From a virus (taxonomy: Duplodnaviria; Caudoviricetes): DNA of 64,000 nucleotides. How positions within the stretch are numbered: position 1 is the first letter of the stretch; each line of letters starts with the position of its first letter. Both the position numbers and the translations under genes were made by a program. The stretch is from IMG/VR virus record IMGVR_UViG_3300022660_000043, one strand, 5' to 3'. The notes beneath the pieces were generated by a model. That model saw nothing but the letters and a program-made list of their open reading frames with translations. It was not told where the DNA came from and did no database searches. Below, one piece after another: positions 1,464 to 46,725 of the stretch.

Positions 1464-4400
1464 TTAAACGTCTGCACCTGAAAAGTCTAATTCAAAAGCA
1501 GTATTTGTATCCGCGTTATAAGCATAAATACGCCAACAAGGACCATAGGCGTCTATTATTGAATAATGTAGTGGATCACTAATAAATACTTTTGGTACCT
1601 GAGGCATTAAATTAGCATCACAACCGTAGAACCAGCCATCAGTAAAGTTAGTTATACTAGGTCTACTAGAAGTAAGTCTTAATATCACATTCGTTAATGT
1701 AGAAGTAAATCCAAATACTCTAGGACCTAGATAGCTTACTGTACTCGGAACATCTACTGAAGATAACGCTGTGTAATAGAAAGCTTCTTCCTCAATAGAA
1801 GTTACTGTTGCTGGAATTGTAATTTGTGTAATAGCAGAACCCTTAAAAGCGCCCTTACCTATAGTTACAAGGGTGTCAGGCAAATCTACACTTTCAAGAT
1901 AAGATTGTCTAAAGTTTACGCCAGCAGCAAAAGCATACTCAGGAATTTTAGTAGTCCAAGCATATTCTATATCATACTTAGTTTGTTTACCTGCACCAAT
2001 ACCCCAGTCAATAGGCCCAGCAGAATTCAATCTTAAAGTACTATTAAATATACGCTCTCCAACCTGTAATTCCGGGTTAAGCAATACTACCTTTTCAAGT
2101 TTACCACAGTTACCAAATGCCTCTGACTTAATAAGATTAATATACTCTGGTACAATAAGCTCTTTAATACCGCTATTATTAGCGAATTGGCTACCTATTT
2201 CTCTTAAGGCCCCATTTTCTTCAAAGATAATTCTTGTTAAATTGGAGCAATTAGCAAATACATTGTTTCCTACCTCTAGCACAGTCTTTGGAATAATAAT
2301 ATCACCTGTAAGGCCAGAGCAGTTCTCAAATGCTTGAGTACCAATTCTTGTAATACTAGAAGGAATGTCTATTGTTTTTATTTTTCTGCATACCGCAAAA
2401 GCGGCAGTAGCAATAGAAGTCATGTAAGGTGTTAGTTTTAACTCTGTAATATTAGCACCTTTAAATGCATAATCACCTGTAGTAACTAGATCCCATGCAA
2501 ATTCTATGTCAGTTATACAGCAAGCTGGATCTACAGCTTGGTTTTTAAAGCTACCACCTAATTTATAGCCATGTGGAGTACCATAAATTTCTACAATATA
2601 AGTACCTGGCTCAGAATAAGTATGAGAAACAGACGTGGTATAAATAGTTTGTGAGCTTGAAAATTCTCCAGAGTCATCTCCAAAATATATTTTTATATCG
2701 TTTGCCCTATTTTGAGAGTAATTAATTGTTATGGTATAAGGATCTATTACTTCATCGTCTGCAGGCTTATCTTCTAAAGCATTAATATCAAATGGAATTT
2801 GAATAGTTACTTTAGTTGGGGTACGATATTCCTGCCACTCTGCATAAAGTTGCATATCTCCCTCAACAACATCAGTATCAAAATCCCATCTATTTATTAA
2901 TCCAGGTTCAGTGTACCAGTTGCTTATAATATAGCCTGCATGGTAGAGAGGCAAAGGCAAGTTAACTTTATGTAGGTAAGTAATAGTTTGGTCTTCAACT
3001 ACTTTATCATTTATCTCCTGCCCTGTAGTGAACTTAACCACATAGTTTTTAGGTGAACAGGTAGTCTCTACTGTAAAATCTGTATTAATTACCTGAGAAC
3101 TACCATTTTCAACTATCTCCCCATTAACTAATATACTTAATTTTTCATAGTGTGGGTCTAAGGTTGAAGTAACAGATACAGTTGTGCCACTCAAAGCAAA
3201 TGTAGTAAGAATATTTTCAGCTTCTTTAACCACGATACTATCTGTGCCAACTGCAGGTAAATAAATAATAGGCTTAGAAATAAGTTTTGTGTTAGCTACA
3301 TTACCATTTTTATCTGTAATCCAAAAGTAGTACTCACCAGAATTATCAATTTGTTGTTCACCAATCCATGAAGTAACAGGCGTTAGTGTATTCCATTCTT
3401 GAGGAGCATCAGCAGAGTTATGAATAAGCGCCCAACCTGAAATACCTAAGTTATCTTTAGCTTCAAAAGAAAATGTATTAAAATTCTTTCTAGTAGCAAC
3501 TACAGTAGGTTTATTTGCGTCTTCCCATTTTGCAGTTAAAATCACATTATCTGTAACTAGAGTCGGATTTTCAGTATTAAAAGACCAGTATTGATTGTCA
3601 GGTGTATACCAGCCAAGCAGTGTAACACCCTCAGGAATTCCAGTACAAATAGGTTCTTCCACTGCAGTGCCGTAATATTTAACAATTTCTGTAGGATTAA
3701 CTACGATTATATCAGAATCAGCATTAAAGCTTACCTTATACTGCTGTATATATTCGTCATATACGGCTGTAATTACGATATTTCTAGTAATCTTATCCTC
3801 AGCTGTCCATGTTTTATTATCATCAGTCTTCCAACTATTGAATACCCAATAGTTTTTTTGAGTCTCTGGCTTAGTAGGGTCTCCAGGATAATATGCATTG
3901 AAGCCCTGGTTAACTAGCTGCTCGTTAAAGATCTCACCGTTGTTAATAAATGTAACAGAACATACAACTGCATCAGTATTGATAATTACTTCAGGGTATC
4001 TAGCTGAGAACTCAGTATACTCAGCATAGGGAATATGAGGTACAAAGACTTTACCTGTAACCTGTGCCTTAGCAGTTGTAAGACCCTCAGAATCAAGACC
4101 TTGCATTGTATCTAAGAGCTCATAGAAATCTCTTAGATCTTCCCACTTCTCATAAGTCTCATCAATACCAATAAGTCTTACAGCTGAATTATATTTCATC
4201 TGTGCTACTAAAGCTTTAGCATCAATAGAGGTAGATGGAATATTTTCTAGCCACAAAGACTCAATATTACTAGTACCAGCAAGTTGCAAGTCATTTAGCA
4301 GTGGCTGATTCTTAATTGTAAGCTTAGTTAGAGTTTCAGGAAGGTGAAGTACCTTGATATTACCACCATCAGGAAGAGTAATACCTGTGATCTTGGTACC

Positions 4401-12454: not shown

Positions 12455-13343
12455 AAGAAGGTTAAAAGACTGAGAATACATCTTCATAATTGCTACGGCT
12501 TAATGACCTTATTGATTAGTCACTTTTCCACTTCCTTTTGGGAAGTACCGCTCATGCCTGCAATTCGTCACCCCAGCACAAGGGCTCCAGGCTTGCTTTC
12601 GCCTTTACAGAAACAATTACTCGATTATCACTCCACTATCAACCTTGCGGGCTGTTCGAGGTTGCTACGCCTCTATAGATTCGTTTCAATCAAATACCAA
12701 ATGCTTGTGACACTTGATATCCCAGATTGCTTACCACTCTGGGCTTAAGACACTTTTCTTTGTTTCCAACAATAGGTTTTTACTCATGACATTGTTTTCC
12801 TATGACAACCGCTCTGCCTACTGAGCTACCGGCGTATAAAAGAGATAAGTGCTAATTATCTCTATAGATAAAATTGGCACGCCGGGTGGGACTCGAACCC
12901 ACGCTAAGTTGAGATTTGACAGAAGACAGACTATTGTTGTAGTTCTCACACCTTTTGAGTGCAAGAATGCTACCCGCCTTCAACACTTTCCTTGGCTTCG
13001 TACTCGTATTTCTTATACCCACCGTAGCAGATATAAATGGAAGTCGCCCTTGCTTGCTAAAACTTGAACTATTTTACTTCCTGTAGCTTACCTTACCTCA
13101 TCAAATCCTTTTGCGTTGAAACCAGCTCCTTGCGAGAGCGAAAATAGTTCAGTCAGTTGACCCTACAACTATTTTCTTTTCATTTCATCATTGACAAGTT
13201 AGAACATGGGGTTAGCATATTCGTAAGAATCTTTTCAATTCTTACAGGTCCCGTCACACATTGCCTGAGGTACTGTTCATCACAGCGGAGTCTTGTCAGT
13301 ATACTCCTTTCATTCCCTTACGGGAAGTTATCGGTCAGGCCCG
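12455..13343 (-). ncRNA. Large structured ncRNA, GOLLD-like, containing a circularly permuted tRNA domain
   Basis: About 890 nt with no credible ORF, starting just after the promoter at 13352. Many GNRA/CAAAAGG hairpins and a 3' ...GUAUUCUCAG end resembling GOLLD as recalled; lies in a tRNA array. Confidence 0.55.
12807..12912 (-). ncRNA. Circularly permuted tRNA-like domain
   Basis: T-arm + CCGGCGU-GCCA (12875-12903) precedes ACGCCGG + D-arm (12811-12835); hairpin spacer between them. Confidence 0.8.
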
Positions 13344-13400
13344 TATATTATATTATACAATATAATTTTTAAAATTTTAATTTAATTTTTAAAAAATTTT

Positions 13401-13524
13401 AGGCTGTTTATTTCATTCCATTTACTACAGCTTCTGGTATTCACGACTATGTACAGTTGGACCCTCTACCACTTAAGGATAGCTCCCTCTATCGGTATAT
13501 ACACATGTCTGCTTCGTAGCACCT
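13401..13524 (-). ncRNA. Family B scaffold RNA copy 1
   Basis: AGGUGCUACGAAGC...AGCUGUAGUAAAUGGA...AAACAGCCU. Confidence 0.75.
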
Positions 13525-13528
13525 ATTA

Positions 13529-14547: not shown

Positions 14548-15579
14548 TTATAATTTACCTAAAAATTTATACTGAATAGTTGAATTTCTAATAAGCTCAG
14601 AGTCTAACAACTCCATAAGTTCTTCATAACTTTGTATATTAGATAACATATTCAAAACTATGCTGCTAGAACTTAAATGTCGTAAATACATTTTACAAAC
14701 CTTAATAGCATCTTTTAAATGTACAGCAGAATTAAAATTATTTTTATAAACTAGATGTTTTTTTAAAACAGTTATTAATCTTTCTGAAGTTAAATCGTCT
14801 ATAAATTCGCCTTTTAATAAAGCTAAAGAATCTTGAAAGATAAATGGATTTCCCATAGCGCCTCTAGCAATCATTACACTATCTACTTCACAATACTCAA
14901 ACATTCTTAAAACATCCCGAGCATTAAAAAGATCACCATTACCTACTACAGGTATCTTAACTGCTTTTTTCGCTTTCTTAATATTATCTAGACTATTTGT
15001 ATTACATTTATAAGCATCAGTATAAGTTCTACCATGAACCGTAATAAAATCAACACCACAGCTTTCAGCCATACGTGCAAAATCAACAACATTTACAGAT
15101 TTAGCATCCCAACCAGTACGAATCTTTATACTTAAGGGTAAATTAGTAGATGATCTGGCTGCGCGTATAACTTTTTCAGCTCTTTTTAAGTCTTTCAGAA
15201 AACAAGCCCCTTCATTCAAATTAATGATATTAATATTTGGACATCCCATATTTAAATCAATAACTTTAGGCAATGTAGTAACTTTACGACCTAAATATTT
15301 ACCAGAAGATAAAGCCCCTATACAAAAAGCTGTATCTTTTTCAGCAAAACACCGTAGTTGCACGCCAATTGGCTCGGTACTTTCGTAGTCAATAATAGCA
15401 GCATTATTAAAAGTTGTAGCTAACTTATTCGTCTGCTCCTTAAAAAAACCACGAGTTGATACAAACTCTGTAAAACAAAATTCTGCTCCAAAATCTAAAC
15501 AAATTTTACGAAAAGCTTTATCTGTAATATTTGTCAATGGTGCTAGCATAAGCTTCGGCGGAATAAATTTATTACTCAT
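14548..15579 (-). CDS. dus: tRNA-dihydrouridine synthase (DusB-like)
   Basis: LAPL, IDLNMGCP, KIRTGWD, VHGRT, GNGD, MIARGAMGNP motifs. Confidence 0.92.
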   Translation of the reverse strand: MSNKFIPPKLMLAPLTNITDKAFRKICLDFGAEFCFTEFVSTRGFFKEQTNKLATTFNNAAIIDYESTEPIGVQLRCFAEKDTAFCIGALSSGKYLGRKVTTLPKVIDLNMGCPNINIINLNEGACFLKDLKRAEKVIRAARSSTNLPLSIKIRTGWDAKSVNVVDFARMAESCGVDFITVHGRTYTDAYKCNTNSLDNIKKAKKAVKIPVVGNGDLFNARDVLRMFEYCEVDSVMIARGAMGNPFIFQDSLALLKGEFIDDLTSERLITVLKKHLVYKNNFNSAVHLKDAIKVCKMYLRHLSSSSIVLNMLSNIQSYEELMELLDSELIRNSTIQYKFLGKL

Positions 15580-27091: not shown

Positions 27092-27700
27092 TTAACAAGA
27101 AATTTGACTTAAATTTGTAATTGTTCGATCAAGTTTTTCTTGAGTCCACCAACCATAGGTGTCTAAAATATCAAGATTAGCCTTAAGCTCATACAGCTTA
27201 TCGAGAATGGCCTGTTTCTGCTCTTCTGTGATATGTCCAACACGATGAACTAACCTAGTACGCTCAACTGACACGATTGAAGCAGTATTAAAAGAGCTAG
27301 GAAATCTTAAATTACAAGCAGTATGATTAGGAACCTCTACAAGATAATCTAGAAGCGAAGCAGGATGGCTAGTAGTTAACTGAAAACCATAAACTCTAAA
27401 AGCATTCGCATAAATAACAAGAAGTGGACGACGAATATGATCTAAGTTAATGTTTCTACCATACTGAAAAAGATCTGCAACAAGAATATCACCACGCTGA
27501 AACTCTACTAAGTCTGTTCCATAATCTTCTGTTATATCAGCAAAAGGTAAGTCTTGATACTCAACTTCTTCTTGCCACCCAAGATTAGGGTCGAGATCAA
27601 GTGCATCAGCAAAAGGAGAAGGTTTTAAATCCTCATACAAAGAACTTAAAACATCAAACACATTATCTTCTTCACAGATATAAAAACCGTCCTCTCTCAT
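27092..27700 (-). CDS. PemK/MazF-like endoribonuclease with acidic N-terminal extension
   Basis: FQRGDILVADL...RRPLLVI...QLTT...IVSVERTRL..RVGHI; start reassigned to the ATG after AGGAG. Confidence 0.75.
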   Translation of the reverse strand: MREDGFYICEEDNVFDVLSSLYEDLKPSPFADALDLDPNLGWQEEVEYQDLPFADITEDYGTDLVEFQRGDILVADLFQYGRNINLDHIRRPLLVIYANAFRVYGFQLTTSHPASLLDYLVEVPNHTACNLRFPSSFNTASIVSVERTRLVHRVGHITEEQKQAILDKLYELKANLDILDTYGWWTQEKLDRTITNLSQISC

Positions 27701-27721
27701 CATAACTCCTCTAAATAAAAC

Positions 27722-27865
27722 GGCCAAGCTAATATATACGTTGCTCTACCACTGAGCTACAATCCACGAGTATTGGCCTTATTCAGGCAGTGCCTCCATC
27801 GGAAAGGTAGGACTCGAACCTACGACCTACGGCTTAGCAGGCATTAAGAAATAAGCATTGGCTCT
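27722..27865 (-). ncRNA. Family A RNA with permuted tRNA domain (YrlA-like), enlarged acceptor loop
   Basis: AGAGCCAAUGCUUAUUUCUU...GUAGGUUCGAGUCCUAC...GCUCAGUGGUAGAGC...AGCUUGGCC. Confidence 0.85.
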
Positions 27866-28270: not shown

Positions 28271-30244
28271 TTAGGCGTTAACCAGAGTAGAAAGCTTCTC
28301 TACATCGAAGGAACGAATTACGATCTGCTCTCTGGTAGAACCGTCTTCTGCCTCAGGAAGATTCTTAACCTTAGAAACATAGTCATTTGCAAAGACAATA
28401 TCTGCCTCCTCAGGAGTCTCAACTAGTTCACCACGCCAAGAAGCGATCAAGCCCATGTTAAGCTCAAGCTTAGAAGCATCGAGATACTGAGCCATTACCT
28501 GAAGCTCACGACCGGTAACAACTCGAGAGTCATCATCAGTCATAAGATTAAGGACAATAATCTCATTAGTCTCAAAGTCGATTGCAAAGCCAACGTAAGC
28601 GCGCTTTTCACCCTTGACGTGCATCTTAAGCTCGATATTCTTAGGATCCCAAGCACGAGTCATAAGATCAGTCTTCTGCTGATAGCCACAGTAAATCTCA
28701 CCCTCATTGAGAGTAGAACGGAAACCATGGAAAGTAAAGATCAGCTTGCTTGCACCAAGATGGCGCATTGCACCAAGACGAATATCATAGTACTCAGTAC
28801 CGTCACGCGAGGTGTTATCACCAGAGAACAGCAGAGCATTGCCAAAACGCTTGTTGCTATAGTTACACCAGTTAACAGTAGTCATGATATTGTTATCCTT
28901 ATCGAGAACGATAACAGAAGAGTCAATATCAAACGCATTCTCCCAATGTACGAAAGTACGGATATTATCGGCAGTAATAGGCAGACGAGTACCAGTAGGA
29001 ACAATGTCAATGCCACGACCGCTTGCAGAAGTGTTTACAGGCATAGCAACCTTATAGAAGTCAGGATGTACGTAAACCTTACCCAGAGACTCAAGGGCAC
29101 GGTAGTGACCTTCGATCTTTGCAAGGCAAGTATCATGTACAAGCTTCTTGGTAGCATCGTTGAGGCGAGACTTACGCCAACGAGCCTCATACTCAGTCTC
29201 AACGTGTGCCTTTACACGATTCTTTGCATAGAAGGAGAAAGTACGAGCCTCCTCCGAGTCTGCCATAACGGTAGACATAAGCTGATAAAGAACAATAGGA
29301 TTCTTATCAGAAAGCATATCAAGAATCTTTACTGCCTCTACAGGGTTTGCACGAGAAAGCAGGAACTTAAGGTTACGCTCAAGCAGAGAACCACTCTTAG
29401 CAAATACTTCAGCGGCTCCAAGAATGTCACCATTCTTGAGCTTCTCAGTAGCAATACGATTAGGGGACTGAGCGTTAGTAGTAGGCTTTATATTACGCAC
29501 CTTAGTAAGCTGAACAAGCTTGTTGTAGAACTTTGCCTGCTTCTTAGACATAGGACAATCCTTAACAAGAAGAATAGCCTTACGAATAAGCTCCTTGGTG
29601 TCAGGATCAAGAGTAAGCTCCTTCTTCTCACCGCAGCGAGCAATAGAAAGCTTTACAAGATCCTTCTTATACAGGAAGCGAGCAAAATTGATATCGCGCT
29701 CCATCATAAACACAGCGTTATCACCACAAGCTACATCGTAGTTGTTGTAGTAACCAAGGTTATAGAGCTCTACGAACTCTACCTGCTCATCAAGGCCCCA
29801 AGGACGCTTATAGCCACAGTAGTCCTTAGCGATATCACAGAGAACTACATTTGCCTCATCTACATCGAGGATCTTAAACTCACGAAGCTTGATATCGGAA
29901 CCAACCTCATACTCAGGGAGCTGCTTATCGAATACCTTTACGTGAGAATCATCTGCGCCGTAAGCGAAGAAATAAGACAGAACCTGCTCAATAAAGAGCT
30001 CATCACGAGTGTAATAGCTCATATCCTGAGGATTCTTAAAATAAGACGCAGGAACCTCAAGACGATATTCGTCAGAAATAGCCTTAACGTGGCCCTTGGT
30101 GAGCAGCTCAGGCTTATCCACAACAATACCAAAGTTTGCAAACAAGAAAGCATTAAGGTAGGCCTGCTCCACCTTAGTACCAGCCTCAACAGGCTCTGCC
30201 TGCAGATAACGACGAGAAATGAGAATCTTAGAAATATTCTTAAT
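28271..30244 (-). CDS. Large helical protein with C-terminal TerD-like domain (candidate TROVE/Ro-like RNP subunit); probable AUU start
   Basis: IRTFVHW..DIDSS...FSGD...TEYYDI TerD-like motifs; strongly biased codons; GGAGG 5 nt before in-frame ATT. Confidence 0.75.
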   Translation of the reverse strand: MKNISKILISRRYLQAEPVEAGTKVEQAYLNAFLFANFGIVVDKPELLTKGHVKAISDEYRLEVPASYFKNPQDMSYYTRDELFIEQVLSYFFAYGADDSHVKVFDKQLPEYEVGSDIKLREFKILDVDEANVVLCDIAKDYCGYKRPWGLDEQVEFVELYNLGYYNNYDVACGDNAVFMMERDINFARFLYKKDLVKLSIARCGEKKELTLDPDTKELIRKAILLVKDCPMSKKQAKFYNKLVQLTKVRNIKPTTNAQSPNRIATEKLKNGDILGAAEVFAKSGSLLERNLKFLLSRANPVEAVKILDMLSDKNPIVLYQLMSTVMADSEEARTFSFYAKNRVKAHVETEYEARWRKSRLNDATKKLVHDTCLAKIEGHYRALESLGKVYVHPDFYKVAMPVNTSASGRGIDIVPTGTRLPITADNIRTFVHWENAFDIDSSVIVLDKDNNIMTTVNWCNYSNKRFGNALLFSGDNTSRDGTEYYDIRLGAMRHLGASKLIFTFHGFRSTLNEGEIYCGYQQKTDLMTRAWDPKNIELKMHVKGEKRAYVGFAIDFETNEIIVLNLMTDDDSRVVTGRELQVMAQYLDASKLELNMGLIASWRGELVETPEEADIVFANDYVSKVKNLPEAEDGSTREQIVIRSFDVEKLSTLVNA

Positions 30245-30326
30245 ACCTACCTCCAAAAAAAATTAAAGTGATTTATTTTTAGATACCTACCCCTACCAAA
30301 ATAAACCACTTGATTGTTTTTATTTT

Positions 30327-43690: not shown

Positions 43691-44590
43691 TTATACATTG
43701 TGCCAGTGTACATTTTCAAAGTCTGCCACAAAAATAAGATGATTTCTTTCTAAATAAATATTTTTAAAGTCTTCAAAATAAGAGGTATTGAATCCAAAAG
43801 TAGAAGGCATGTCAACAAAGAATCTTGCAAGCGGGTCAATGTGCCCTTCATACGTATAAAGCTTTGCAGGACATACCTTACCAAAGCGTTCGAGGTAACT
43901 TCTACAGAAATTACGGTATTGATGCTCAGGCATGATTACATAACAGGGAAATTGCTCGGAATCCTTAATCATCTGCTGAATCCAAGCAGTTTTTCCGCAT
44001 CCTCGACCTGCACGGAATTTATGTACTCTAGCAAAAGGAGGACGACCAAAACGACCTCTTACAAGCTCTTTAACTAGAATATAAAACTCTTTCCAGGAAC
44101 CTACTCGATAATCCTGCACAGTAGAATTCTGATTATAAGGTGCATCAAAAAGAACCTTAATCCCCTGACAACCTACAAGATTGTGCTCTGCATCATCGAG
44201 AATAATGTCGCAACGAATAAGTGACTTATTATAAGTAATAATTACATTCTCTTTATCTAAAAATGGAAAATGAGCAAACAAGCACTTCTTAAGCTTATAA
44301 GGCAAAGTCTTATAATGTGAACTTGTAATGACATAGATCTCGTGACCTTCTTGCATCAAACGTGCTACCACATCTACTGCCTCTGGTTTAATCTTTACCT
44401 CATCCCAAAACTCAGGTGTGTTAAGAGGTTCAAAAAGATCTGCCTTAGACAAAAAAGGATAGCATTTAGCGAGCTCCCAATCTTTAACCTCGTCAACTGC
44501 TACCGACCTACCATGCTTTCTATTTAGCCACTCAATCCAAGTATCAAGCATGCTATTAATAGTGCTGTCAAAATCAATTCCGATAACCAT
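43691..44590 (-). CDS. 5'(3')-deoxyribonucleotidase (HAD) with C-terminal P-loop-like extension
   Basis: IDFDST, IILDD, FDAPYN; AGRGCGKT in the C-terminal part. Confidence 0.85.
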   Translation of the reverse strand: MVIGIDFDSTINSMLDTWIEWLNRKHGRSVAVDEVKDWELAKCYPFLSKADLFEPLNTPEFWDEVKIKPEAVDVVARLMQEGHEIYVITSSHYKTLPYKLKKCLFAHFPFLDKENVIITYNKSLIRCDIILDDAEHNLVGCQGIKVLFDAPYNQNSTVQDYRVGSWKEFYILVKELVRGRFGRPPFARVHKFRAGRGCGKTAWIQQMIKDSEQFPCYVIMPEHQYRNFCRSYLERFGKVCPAKLYTYEGHIDPLARFFVDMPSTFGFNTSYFEDFKNIYLERNHLIFVADFENVHWHNV

Positions 44591-44617
44591 TTTATATTTT
44601 TCTCCTTATTAAAGGTT

Positions 44618-44736
44618 TGGCCCAAGACCCAGGACTTGAACCTGGACGCTACCCTGATCATTGATAGCTGATCTATTCCGACCTGCGTCTACCGTGATAG
44701 GACTTACCAACCTGCCTATACTTCCGCCAGCCTTGG
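44618..44736 (-). ncRNA. tRNA-Leu-like RNA with D-loop hairpin insertion and abnormal anticodon arm
   Basis: CCAAGGC/GTCTTGG-GCCA; GCGGAA[insert]GGTAGACGC; T arm CCAGG-TTCAAGT-CCTGG. Confidence 0.65.
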
Positions 44737-44748
44737 ATATAAAAATTA

Positions 44749-44809
44749 GGGGTCATTATGAGATTTGAACTCATCAAGGCGTCCCTCGCTCACCTAAAAG
44801 CAATGACCC
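44749..44809 (-). ncRNA. Minimal tRNA-like RNA (about 60 nt)
   Basis: GGGTCATT/AATGACCC stem, T arm ATGAG-TTCAAAT-CTCAT, shrunken D and anticodon arms. Confidence 0.6.
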
Positions 44810-44826
44810 ATACAGCAAAAATTTAA

Positions 44827-44918
44827 TAGCTGTTCGTCTAACTCCATTTACTACAGCTCCTGTACCCAAGCATGACGCATTCTCAAAGCGTTTCTTGCAT
44901 CTTGGCTTTGTGGCACTA
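44827..44918 (-). ncRNA. Family B scaffold RNA copy 3
   Basis: UAGUGCCACAAAGCC...AGCUGUAGUAAAUGGA...GAACAGCUA. Confidence 0.75.
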
Positions 44919-44939
44919 TTAAATTTAATACAGATAGGG

Positions 44940-45056
44940 GTGAAGGAGATGGGATTTCGTTACCCACAACACACCCGATATTTACTCAGGCCGCTCTTAT
45001 TACTTATCGCTCTTTACCTCAAGCTTTATAACTTCGCAATTGGCGTACTCCTTCAT
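44940..45056 (-). ncRNA. Degenerate tRNA-like RNA
   Basis: TGAAGGAG/CTCCTTCA stem, D-like CGC-CAATT-GCG, T-like GTGGG..CCCAT. Confidence 0.45.
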
Positions 45057-45416
45057 TTGGGTTGCATGCAAAAAACTTATTTTATTCGTTCAGAAAAAAC
45101 AAGCAAAAACTCCTAGCTGTCAATACTTGACAAATCGTATATAGCTGCTTCCGAGCCGCCAGAAGCACCGCTAGTACGTCTCTAAAACCCAGTCATAACC
45201 GCCTACTGACTGCTAGCGCCCACTTTTCTCTAGACCTTCCCACCTTAGTCCTACACAGTTCCTTCTCATCAATCCCAGTAGATAAGCGGATCTACTGCTG
45301 TGCCCACAAATTTAGGTTGCGCTCTCCCTACAGCTTATAAACTGTTGGGCGGAGTATCCTCACAAAAATCAAAAATCATTAAAATAAGGTCTCCTTCCTA
45401 AATAAAAGATTTCAAA

Positions 45417-45979
45417 GAGCTGTTCATCTCACTCCATTTACTACTGCTGCTTCAGGGACACCGCTTTCCGATACAGGCTTGCCTAACGCTCAATCGGCTT
45501 CGTAGCACTCTTTGATAATAAGTCTCTTGTTTTGGCAGTCCAAGCGAAGACTACGGGGAACTTCCCACGTTCAACACCAAATCAGACCCGGCTGTTTAAC
45601 TCTTTCCATTACCACAGCTTCTTACAACCTCACCAAATACTTCGCTCATGATCTCCATATTCAGCGCTTCGTGGCACCCAAGTCTCAGCAACTGTCAAAG
45701 CTCGTTGCACTCTTCCCTTCTGAGTTTGTTTCTCTACGAGTCTCAGCCGGTTGGCGTATTGTTCGTAGTGTAGGCTGGTTTTCGCATTATCCATTTACCA
45801 CAGTTTTCCTCCGTTCATGCTTGACTTCCGGCTTCGTGGCACCTACTTGTGAGCTGTTCATTGCACTCCATTTACCACTGCTCCAGCTTCCGTCTCTTAA
45901 TCCCATATTGGCATTGGCTTCTTAGGCCATCTCTTAACTGCCGTATCTACATTAAGTCCATAGGCTTCGTGGCACTCAC
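45417..45979 (-). ncRNA. Array of four family B scaffold RNAs (45417-45510, 45589-45679, 45770-45846, 45849-45979)
   Basis: Each NNGUGCYACGAAGC-[variable]-GYWGURGUAA(A)UGGA-N7-9-AA(C)CAGCNN; promoter-like TGTATTATATAAT just upstream. Confidence 0.8.
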
Positions 45980-46009
45980 ATTATATAATACAATAGGGAG
46001 CTTAGAAAT

Positions 46010-46725
46010 TTAAGCTCCCTTTTTATAATTTTTCCAATCTTTTTTCCACTGCTTTGAGTATTTGTCAAGAATATGTTCCACAATAACAGCATTACCTTGT
46101 TCTATACCACAAGATCCAGCAAAATACCAATCATCTCCGAGTAAATAATCACAGAGTATGTGTATTGCAGTCTGAGCATTAAGTGGTGGAGGATAAATAC
46201 CATAAGTAGTATCCTCAATATTATCTCTCATTAAGTCAAAGCTCTTGTTGTAAATATAATTCTCTTTCTTTTTCACGCTCCAATACCATCGCTTTCATTT
46301 TTGCTAAATCAGCTCCATCAATATATACAGTTCCACAATTTGCACAAACCAAAGGCTCTACAGAAAAACCAAAATAGCGATTAGTTGTAAGCTTTAAGTA
46401 ACAGCAAGCATCAGTAGCGTCTGATCTAAGCTTTAAAACTTGATTATACCCACAATTAGGACAACCTCTAATATTTGTCATATTTAACTCCTTATCCTGC
46501 ATCAAACATAAGTTCAGGGATCTTAGTAGTCTTCTGTCCAGGTGTAAGATTAAACTCTGTATCAAATCTGAATCTAGGTCTAAAATCACCATCTCCATCT
46601 GCATAAAAACCAACAAGAGAAGAATGTCCTAAACTACCATTTCTTTGAATATACCTCAAAAAAGAACAAAAGTCATCAACCCAGCGCTCTTCCATAGTAA
46701 CTTCAATATTAAACGTTTTTTCCAT
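46010..46725 (-). other. Three small hypothetical genes (about 46010-46230, 46236-46481 zinc ribbon, 46492-46725)
   Basis: Tiled ORFs. Confidence 0.65.

What the first reader, a model, noticed from the sequence alone, without database searches (positions are those of the whole stretch)
44827..45979. Second repeated RNA scaffold with conserved ends and unrelated cargo (7 copies in 2 clusters)
Seen: copies at 13401, 13629, 44827, 45417, 45589, 45770 and 45849 read NNGUGCYACGAAGC-[unrelated sequence of very different lengths]-GYWGURGUAA(A)UGGA-N7-9-AACAGCNN. The terminal stem covaries (GAG/CUC, AGG/CCU, UAG/CUA) around a bulged G, and the inner stem covaries (CCAC/GUGG, CUAC/GUAG, CACUAA/UUAGUG). 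The main cluster follows a promoter and lies upstream of the nucleotidase, RNA ligase and Thg1 genes. Inference: a protein-binding handle carrying variable guide, decoy or effector modules. The invariant unpaired UGGA could pair with a tRNA 3' UCCA end, as in T-box antiterminators. From memory it resembles RNAs predicted beside band-7/slipin genes in RNA-repair loci, but no such gene is in this window.
Basis: partly seen in the sequence, partly recalled or inferred. Interest (0 to 1): 0.85.

Follow-up and report, generated by a model that had tools for sequence, protein, structure and literature searches.

The report
Phage RNA frame with swappable arms
Large uncultured gut phages make a family of small folded RNAs, found in no RNA catalogue or paper available here, whose constant frame holds an exchangeable arm that seems to dock back onto it the way the two loops of a tRNA do; what the RNAs are for is still untested.

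Summary
The repeats are real: six clear copies and one degenerate copy (13629), all on the minus strand. Pattern scans gave 246 distinct units (139 unrelated arm families) in gut phages of at least three lineages; no Rfam, cultured-phage or literature match. The 3' 'loop' is a third helix capped by a T-loop, so this is a three-way junction; its UGGA is paired (U-A to C-G in 5 of 5 variants), which argues against T-box-like pairing to tRNA. The cargo is not unrelated: many arms carry a U-U-R loop 20-45 nt out whose purine follows T-loop residue 2 (U with G, G with A), as in the tRNA D-loop/T-loop elbow. No guide complementarity was found, and Ro60, band-7 and repair genes are not required. Related phages swap units like cassettes. 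Best reading (0.4): a non-aminoacylated tRNA-elbow-like decoy or scaffold aimed at a host factor; the partner is unknown. This scan has met the family before in another genome (e1-5650792, e1-5650801); the docking rule is my own result.

The parts
45849..45979 (-). Unit A: frame with T-loop UGCAA; arm loop UUAA
   Evidence: 97% identical unit in L264
45770..45845 (-). Unit B: shortest unit; third helix is Watson-Crick (UGG/CCA), no T-loop, short arm without a UUR loop
   Evidence: 97% identical unit in an otherwise dissimilar locus L012
45589..45680 (-). Unit C: two-A junction variant, loop AGAGU
   Evidence: same arm in relative L165
45414..45513 (-). Unit D: consensus-like, T-loop UGAGA, arm UUAG
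44819..44926 (-). Unit E: 11-bp terminal stem, T-loop UUAGA, arm loop UUUGA; C.A mismatch in the inner stem suggests a recent crossover (inference)
13400..13525 (-). Unit F in the tRNA cluster, upstream of the GOLLD promoter; T-loop UGAAA, arm loop UUAA
13629..13786 (-). Unit G: degenerate member directly after tRNA-Glu(UUC); long arm helix, shortened third helix
   Evidence: (11 bits)
45980..45994 (-). Extended -10-like element in front of unit A
   Evidence: seen in sequence; not called by the consensus scan
45995..46020 (.). Terminator-like hairpin separating the RNA block from the upstream Tad8-family gene
44615..45848 (-). ORF-poor RNA block holding the units, conserved spacers and two tRNA-like elements
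   Evidence: RNA-library contigs concentrate here

Best explanation
Each unit is a small RNA gene. Shown by covariation: a three-way junction of a terminal stem P1 (about 5-8 bp), a stem P2 leading into the variable arm, and a 5-pair hairpin P4 (U-A, G-C, G.A, A.A, R.R) capped by a T-loop U-K-N-R-A. Strongly suggested: in about half of the arm families a U-U-R-N loop docks into that T-loop as the tRNA D-loop does (G opposite U at residue 2, A opposite G; sometimes a Watson-Crick pair with residue 3), within one molecule by folding back or between two molecules. Inferred: the result is a compact, end-protected RNA with a tRNA-elbow-like surface but no anticodon and no CCA, made from host-type promoters and read by a host factor that recognises tRNA shape (a tRNA-directed nuclease or sensor, or another elbow reader). 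The arm supplies exchangeable extra surfaces that phages swap by recombination in the conserved ends. It would act as decoy or tether in host takeover or counter-defence.
For: P1, P2 and P4 covariation. T-loop closing pair U.A 186, A.U 4, C.A 3 of 195. Arm loop follows T-loop residue 2: UUG 67 observed vs 32 expected in U-type frames (UUA 32 vs 42); UUA 59 vs 32 in G-type frames (UUG 29 vs 28). Switches inside one arm family: UUAGA/UUGU vs UGAGA/UUAU, and UUCGA/UUGG vs UUUGA/UUGA. The tRNA rule (residue 18 pairs with T-loop position 2, residue 19 with position 3) is from PMC4810234. No CCA after P1 in 234 of 246. 97 of 153 units lie within 500 nt of a tRNA, all on the same strand. Three lineages share no candidate RNA-binding protein. 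Slots are exchanged between close relatives. RNA-library contigs concentrate on the block.
Against: No partner identified and no experiment. Roughly half of the arm families, mostly UGARA frames, show no UUR loop, and pairing with residue 3 is only partial. The loop lies at least 20 nt out, so docking within one molecule needs a sharp turn that is not shown. P4 is largely non-canonical and a G separates it from P1, unlike a tRNA T arm. Families are treated as independent in the shuffles and may share ancestry. The RNA evidence is contigs only, from related strains, without strand or ends.
Confidence: 0.4

Rival explanations
1. Y-RNA-like tether: the frame is the docking site of one specific protein (a Ro60/TROVE-like ring such as DUF2828 or the 661-aa helical protein, or an unrelated host protein), and the arm recruits different effectors.
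For: Same logic as Y RNA (constant end module, variable domain). The 5' strand YACGAAG (194 of 246) shares CGAAG with GNCGAAN0-1G. About 25 near-invariant bases with modest folding energy. DUF2828 or 661-aa homologues occur in 16 of 49 carriers, never together.
Against: The full Ro motif is met at that site by 0 of 246 units. TROVE in 1 of 37 complete carriers; most carriers have neither candidate.
Confidence: 0.22
2. RNA-only binder: two T-loop-like loops (frame and arm) interlock or stack to grip tRNA elbows, as T-box stem I, RNase P and the L1 stalk do, or to build RNA oligomers.
For: With a UUUGA frame loop, 32 of 44 arm families carry a second UUUGA (4.7 expected), never closer than 20 nt. 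Interdigitated T-loops are the known RNA device for elbow binding (PMC4810234). Units sit in tRNA clusters.
Against: The G-type partner loop (UUA) and the purine switch fit D-loop docking better than a symmetric double T-loop. Some carriers have only 2-4 tRNAs, and one unit lies 14 kb from any tRNA.
Confidence: 0.13
3. Small-molecule aptamer (signal sponge) or ribozyme: the invariant junction and T-loop form a ligand pocket or active site.
For: Invariant core of riboswitch or ribozyme size with a variable peripheral arm. A Tad8-family anti-Thoeris gene lies directly upstream in this clade. From memory, a UGAGA T-loop holds the ligand ring in TPP riboswitches.
Against: No Rfam aptamer or ribozyme match even at high E. 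The T-loop slot appears to be filled by the arm's own purine. The junction has only 2-3 unpaired bases. The Tad8 neighbour is clade-specific.
Confidence: 0.12
4. Guide-RNA scaffold whose arm base-pairs with targets.
For: Very high arm diversity (139 families) and cassette exchange.
Against: Longest matches to the own genome, phage tRNAs and E. coli rRNA are at shuffle level; one 16-nt rRNA match falls in a stem that covaries internally in its homologue. Arms keep hairpins while their sequence drifts. True host mRNAs were not tested.
Confidence: 0.05
5. T-box-antiterminator-like pairing of UGGA with the tRNA 3' end.
For: UGG is near-invariant and units lie among tRNAs.
Against: UGG lies in helix P4 with a compensatory C-G change in 5 families (p about 1e-8). 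T-boxes need UGGN at the 5' edge of a 7-nt bulge next to helix A1 plus stem III (PMC7583486); none of this is present.
Confidence: 0.02
6. Processing or stability signal, or a selfish cassette, without a trans function.
For: Units often head RNA operons or abut tRNAs; P1 pairing ends after about 8 bp.
Against: Arm structure and the arm-to-frame coupling are conserved, and up to seven different units are kept in one genome.
Confidence: 0.06

Closest known systems
Bacterial and phage Y RNAs (YrlA RF02553, YrlB, Yrn1) with Ro60/Rsr (PMC4201824)
   Same: About 70-200 nt; paired ends; constant module plus variable domain; T-loop and D-loop-like contact; CGAAG on the 5' strand; found among phage tRNA and repair genes.
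   Different: No GNCGAAN0-1G at that site, no Ro60 nearby or in most genomes, no YrlA model match, a three-way junction with a non-canonical T hairpin at the closed end instead of a permuted cloverleaf.
tRNA elbow (D-loop/T-loop) and tRNA mimics (PMC4810234)
   Same: T-loop pentamer closed by U.A; partner loop U-U-R-N covarying with residues 2 and 3; T hairpin next to a 5-8 bp terminal stem.
   Different: No anticodon arm, no CCA, non-canonical T stem, a G between T stem and terminal stem, partner loop on a long variable arm; not called by ARAGORN or RF00005.
Phage T4 rnaC/rnaD (species 1 and 2 RNAs; PMC12685909)
   Same: Small phage RNAs of similar size and unknown function; from memory, in the tRNA region.
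   Different: No similarity of this family to any GenBank phage; multi-copy with swapped arms. The T4 RNAs' fold was not compared here.
b7a-tRNA beside band-7 genes (Burroughs and Aravind 2016, as cited in 10.1101/312249)
   Same: Predicted RNA in RNA-repair neighbourhoods; some units lie next to band-7 genes.
   Different: Described as strongly resembling an authentic tRNA; band-7 is missing from 21 of 29 near-complete carriers. The original paper could not be read.
T-box antiterminator (PMC7583486)
   Same: A UGG triplet near a terminal helix.
   Different: UGG is paired; no 7-nt bulge, stem III or terminator switch; not a leader of amino-acid genes.

Membership tests
Y RNA (YrlA/YrlB/Yrn1) | GNCGAAN0-1G on the 5' strand | tested here: not met
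   0 of 246 at the stem position; YACGAAG in 194; motif
Y RNA (YrlA/YrlB/Yrn1) | Ro60/TROVE gene within about 4 kb | tested here: not met
   PF05731 in 1 of 37 complete carriers; DUF2828 in 9 of 49 and the 661-aa protein in 7 of 49
Y RNA (YrlA/YrlB/Yrn1) | Match to RF02553 (permuted T-AS-D module) | tested here: not met
   No hit on the units; YrlA-like hits in L206 and L226 are neighbouring, separate RNAs
Y RNA (YrlA/YrlB/Yrn1) | Binds Ro60 in vivo | not testable with these tools
   needs a pull-down
tRNA / tRNA mimic | T-loop motif closed by U.A | tested here: met
   U-K-N-R-A consensus, positions 1 and 5 covary
tRNA / tRNA mimic | D-loop docking into the T-loop (18.55, 19-56) | tested here: inconclusive
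   Class-wide and within-family covariation supports it in about half of the families; no structure
tRNA / tRNA mimic | Cloverleaf with anticodon arm and 3' CCA | tested here: not met
   Not called by ARAGORN or Rfam; no CCA in 234 of 246
b7a-tRNA | Strong resemblance to an authentic tRNA | tested here: not met
b7a-tRNA | Adjacent band-7 gene | tested here: not met
   Band_7 anywhere in 8 of 29 near-complete carriers; near the unit in 7 of 209 loci
T-box antiterminator | Unpaired UGGN at the 5' edge of a 7-nt bulge | tested here: not met
Known riboswitch or ribozyme families in Rfam 15 | Covariance-model match | tested here: not met
Guide RNA systems | Variable region complementary to targets | tested here: inconclusive
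   None for own genome, phage tRNAs, E. coli rRNA; real host transcriptomes not available

The most novel reading that the evidence does not exclude
A phage-wide, modular RNA platform with no known relative: an independently evolved tRNA-elbow-like frame on which unrelated gut phages display a swappable library of RNA effectors or decoys against host tRNA-sensing or tRNA-cutting defences, acting without any phage-encoded protein partner.
Probability: 0.25. Interest if true: 0.88.

Novelty: categorically new. Interest (0 to 1): 0.68.

Why it matters
Many large phages carry small RNAs among their tRNA genes whose purpose has been open since T4 species 1 and 2. This family is abundant in gut phages, crosses unrelated lineages, and now has a defined fold and a testable tertiary rule (arm purine G or A set by T-loop residue 2). 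If it is an elbow-like decoy with swappable arms, it would be a new, RNA-only route of phage counter-defence and a natural display scaffold. I rate it categorically new because no catalogued family shares the fold and it fails the Y RNA, tRNA, b7a and T-box tests; the principle it probably uses, tRNA mimicry, is known, and a specialist could file it as a distant variant of that kind.

Tried and rejected
Rfam at gathering and high E: nothing on the units. Burroughs and Aravind 2016 is not held; b7a is known to me only through a citing paper. Literal motif searches of papers: no hit; the supplement of the IMG/VR candidate-RNA catalogue (PMC10690425) is not held, so an anonymous entry there is not excluded. 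GenBank phages: no match. Host chromosomes: about 300 sampled Bacillota genomes gave only phage-like contigs and weak chance hits; this is 'not found in those searched'. Two scans for the Watson-Crick P4 variant returned only chance matches. Single-sequence folding is no better than shuffles. Resemblances to SRP helix 8, the L11-binding loop of 23S rRNA, CsrA sites, hairpin or pistol ribozymes and attC sites (recalled from memory) were dropped because only one strand fits or the motif is not conserved. A 16-nt antisense match to E. coli 23S rRNA was judged chance. A search for host-class rRNA failed technically. RNA runs with a small share of words are not used for habitat. No whole genome of the window was available. 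The ORF caller used for gene content misses some overlapped genes; tblastn was used as a check.

Full report
Setting. The window is part of a large phage genome: 33 tRNA genes, a GOLLD RNA and dense minus-strand ORFs, among them NT5C, an RNA ligase, Thg1, a kinase and Dus. No whole genome is held.

Observation. Seven elements lie on the minus strand at the stated places. The strict 5' and 3' motifs occur six times each against 0.01 and 0.0 expected. Two covariance models score copies A-F at 40-75 bits with nothing else above 15; copy G reaches only 11 bits and is a degenerate member: it keeps the junction residues and end pairing, and its slot holds an unrelated element in the nearest relative. 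Rfam has no match.

Family. Pattern scans of viral, metagenome and genome collections gave 246 distinct full units of 69-214 nt in 139 arm families unrelated by blastn. Record titles point to animal and human gut. The hits inspected in bacterial assemblies lie on phage-like contigs, and about 300 sampled Bacillota genomes gave no chromosomal copy. No GenBank phage and no paper carries the motif. Fourteen complete carriers of 83-259 kb fall into three groups sharing few genes; three use TAG as a sense codon. 97 of 153 units lie within 500 nt of a tRNA, always on the same strand; in small carriers the unit heads an RNA operon behind a canonical TTGACA-17-TATAAT promoter. In four gut RNA libraries contig depth peaks over 45217-46019 (up to 142 against 0-6 on flanking genes); these are contigs of related strains, without strand or ends, so this is weak support for expression.

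Fold. Caveat: the 3' frame was fixed by the patterns and the first three terminal pairs by my extraction. Unforced pairs covary: terminal pairs 4 and 5, with pairing above background to pair 8; inner stem position 5 U-A 137, C-G 102, A-U 4, and position 6 A-U 234, U-A 5, C-G 4, G-C 2. The decisive pair is U of UGGA with the A before the bulged G: U-A 239, C-G 5, U-G 1; all five C variants, in five families, have G opposite (p 8e-10 by unit, 1.5e-8 by family). Rare variants make the next pairs Watson-Crick (UGG/CCA in copy B and L445, UGGUG/CACCA in L255), and the purines flanking the loop are G.G 186, A.A 51, A.G 9, never G.A. So the 3' segment is a hairpin P4 and the RNA a three-way junction (compare). 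Its loop is U-K-N-R-A with positions 1 and 5 covarying, the T-loop motif (PMC4810234). The internal loop GAAG/NAGCW above P2 fits a bulged-G or bulged-W arrangement; the data do not decide. It is kept in 64 of 66 G-type frames but lost in 37 of 73 U-type frames.

The arm is coupled to the frame. When the frame loop is UUUGA, 32 of 44 arm families contain UUUGA, against 5 of 95 otherwise, never closer than 20 nt to the junction. Over all classes, at offsets 18-45, U-type frames have UUG 67 times (32 expected) and UUA 32 (42); G-type frames have UUA 59 times (32) and UUG 29 (28). Two arm families switch both sites together: UUAGA with UUGU versus UGAGA with UUAU, and UUCGA with UUGG versus UUUGA with UUGA in four relatives. 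This follows the tRNA elbow rule, where D-loop G18 pairs with T-loop position 2 and residue 19 with position 3. Pairing with position 3 is only partial, about half of the families lack the loop, and the families may not be independent. Copies A, D, E and F of the window obey the purine rule; B lacks both loops. Whether docking is within or between molecules is open.

Cargo exchange. Against the nearest relative (spacers 96-97% identical), slots C and D hold the same arm, while A, B, E and F hold unrelated arms and G another element; the T-loop travels with the arm. Unit B recurs at 97% identity in a locus with no flanking similarity. Recombination in the conserved ends is the simplest cause (inference).

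Partner and targets. No guide signal: longest matches to the own genome, phage tRNAs and E. coli rRNA are at shuffle level. TROVE occurs in 1 of 37 complete carriers, Band_7 in 8 of 29, DUF2828 in 9 of 49 and the window's 661-aa protein in 7 of 49. Profile searches found no family common to all carriers, and the smallest show no ligase, Thg1 or kinase. A host partner, or none, is therefore more likely than a phage one (inference; small fast-evolving proteins could be missed).

Mechanism. Shown: fold, family, exchange. Strongly suggested: elbow-like docking. Inferred: a stable, non-aminoacylated tRNA-shaped decoy or tether for a host factor, with arms diversified by conflict (0.40). Rivals: Y-like protein tether (0.22), RNA-only tRNA binder or oligomer (0.13), aptamer or ribozyme (0.12), processing or selfish element (0.06), guide (0.05), T-box-like pairing (0.02).

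Comparison and verdict. It fails the defining tests for Y RNA, b7a-tRNA, tRNA and T-box antiterminators, while it may work like the tRNA-mimic domain of YrlA; T4 rnaC/rnaD are an analogy only. Earlier notes of this scan describe the same family in another genome as a three-helix core with swappable arm; I reached the three-way junction before reading those two, though after seeing a similar note, and count none as evidence. Interest 0.68: an undescribed, widespread RNA class with a specific structural prediction, but no function yet.

Noticed in passing
window 46010-46276 (-): Tad8-family (type II Thoeris inhibitor) gene, Pfam E 4e-20, directly upstream of the RNA block and separated from it by a terminator-like hairpin; the same neighbour occurs in related phages of this clade only.
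   Followed up: partly
window 12467-13345 (-): GOLLD RNA (Rfam hit 12467-12982) apparently starting behind its own -10 element near 13350, about 880 nt in all.
   Followed up: no
window 44615-44818 (-): Two further tRNA-like elements after unit E: one with D- and T-like arms inside a stem, one on a tRNA-Leu-like body ending in CCA with a long insert; neither called by ARAGORN or Rfam.
   Followed up: no
window 44921-45416, 45511-45588, 45682-45769 (-): Spacers between the units are conserved in relatives (83-97%) and look structured; probably further small RNAs.
   Followed up: partly
window 28271-30256 (-): 661-aa ORF without Pfam or PHROG hit, weakly like NF041916 (SCO0854 family); homologues and DUF2828 proteins never occurred in the same carrier (7 and 9 of 49).
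   Followed up: partly
window 14548-15579 (-): Phage-encoded dihydrouridine synthase inside the tRNA cluster; not found in the 14 complete carriers examined.
   Followed up: partly
window 27092-27727 (-): ORF with a PemK/MazF-like domain inside the tRNA region.
   Followed up: no
window 43691-44590 (-): NT5C nucleotidase with an extra C-terminal domain of about 120 aa that the relative L159/L167 (184 aa) lacks.
   Followed up: no
G020, G025, G031 (L385-L404, L425-L436): Three carrier phages read much better with TAG as a sense codon (table 15).
   Followed up: partly
L206:623-737 (-), L226:1083-1203 (-): YrlA-like RNAs (RF02553, 41 and 34 bits, below gathering) lie near units of this family in tRNA clusters.
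   Followed up: partly
L331 about 2000-2560 (-) (G014) and L336 about 2890-3300 (+) (G019): In small carriers the unit is followed by several hundred ORF-free, structured-looking bases, suggesting islands of further unknown RNAs.
   Followed up: no
L174:8365-8445 (-), L385:9408-9494 (-), L315: A subfamily whose arm has a GUUCAAA loop complementary to its own UUUGA loops, allowing a kissing or alternative pairing.
   Followed up: partly
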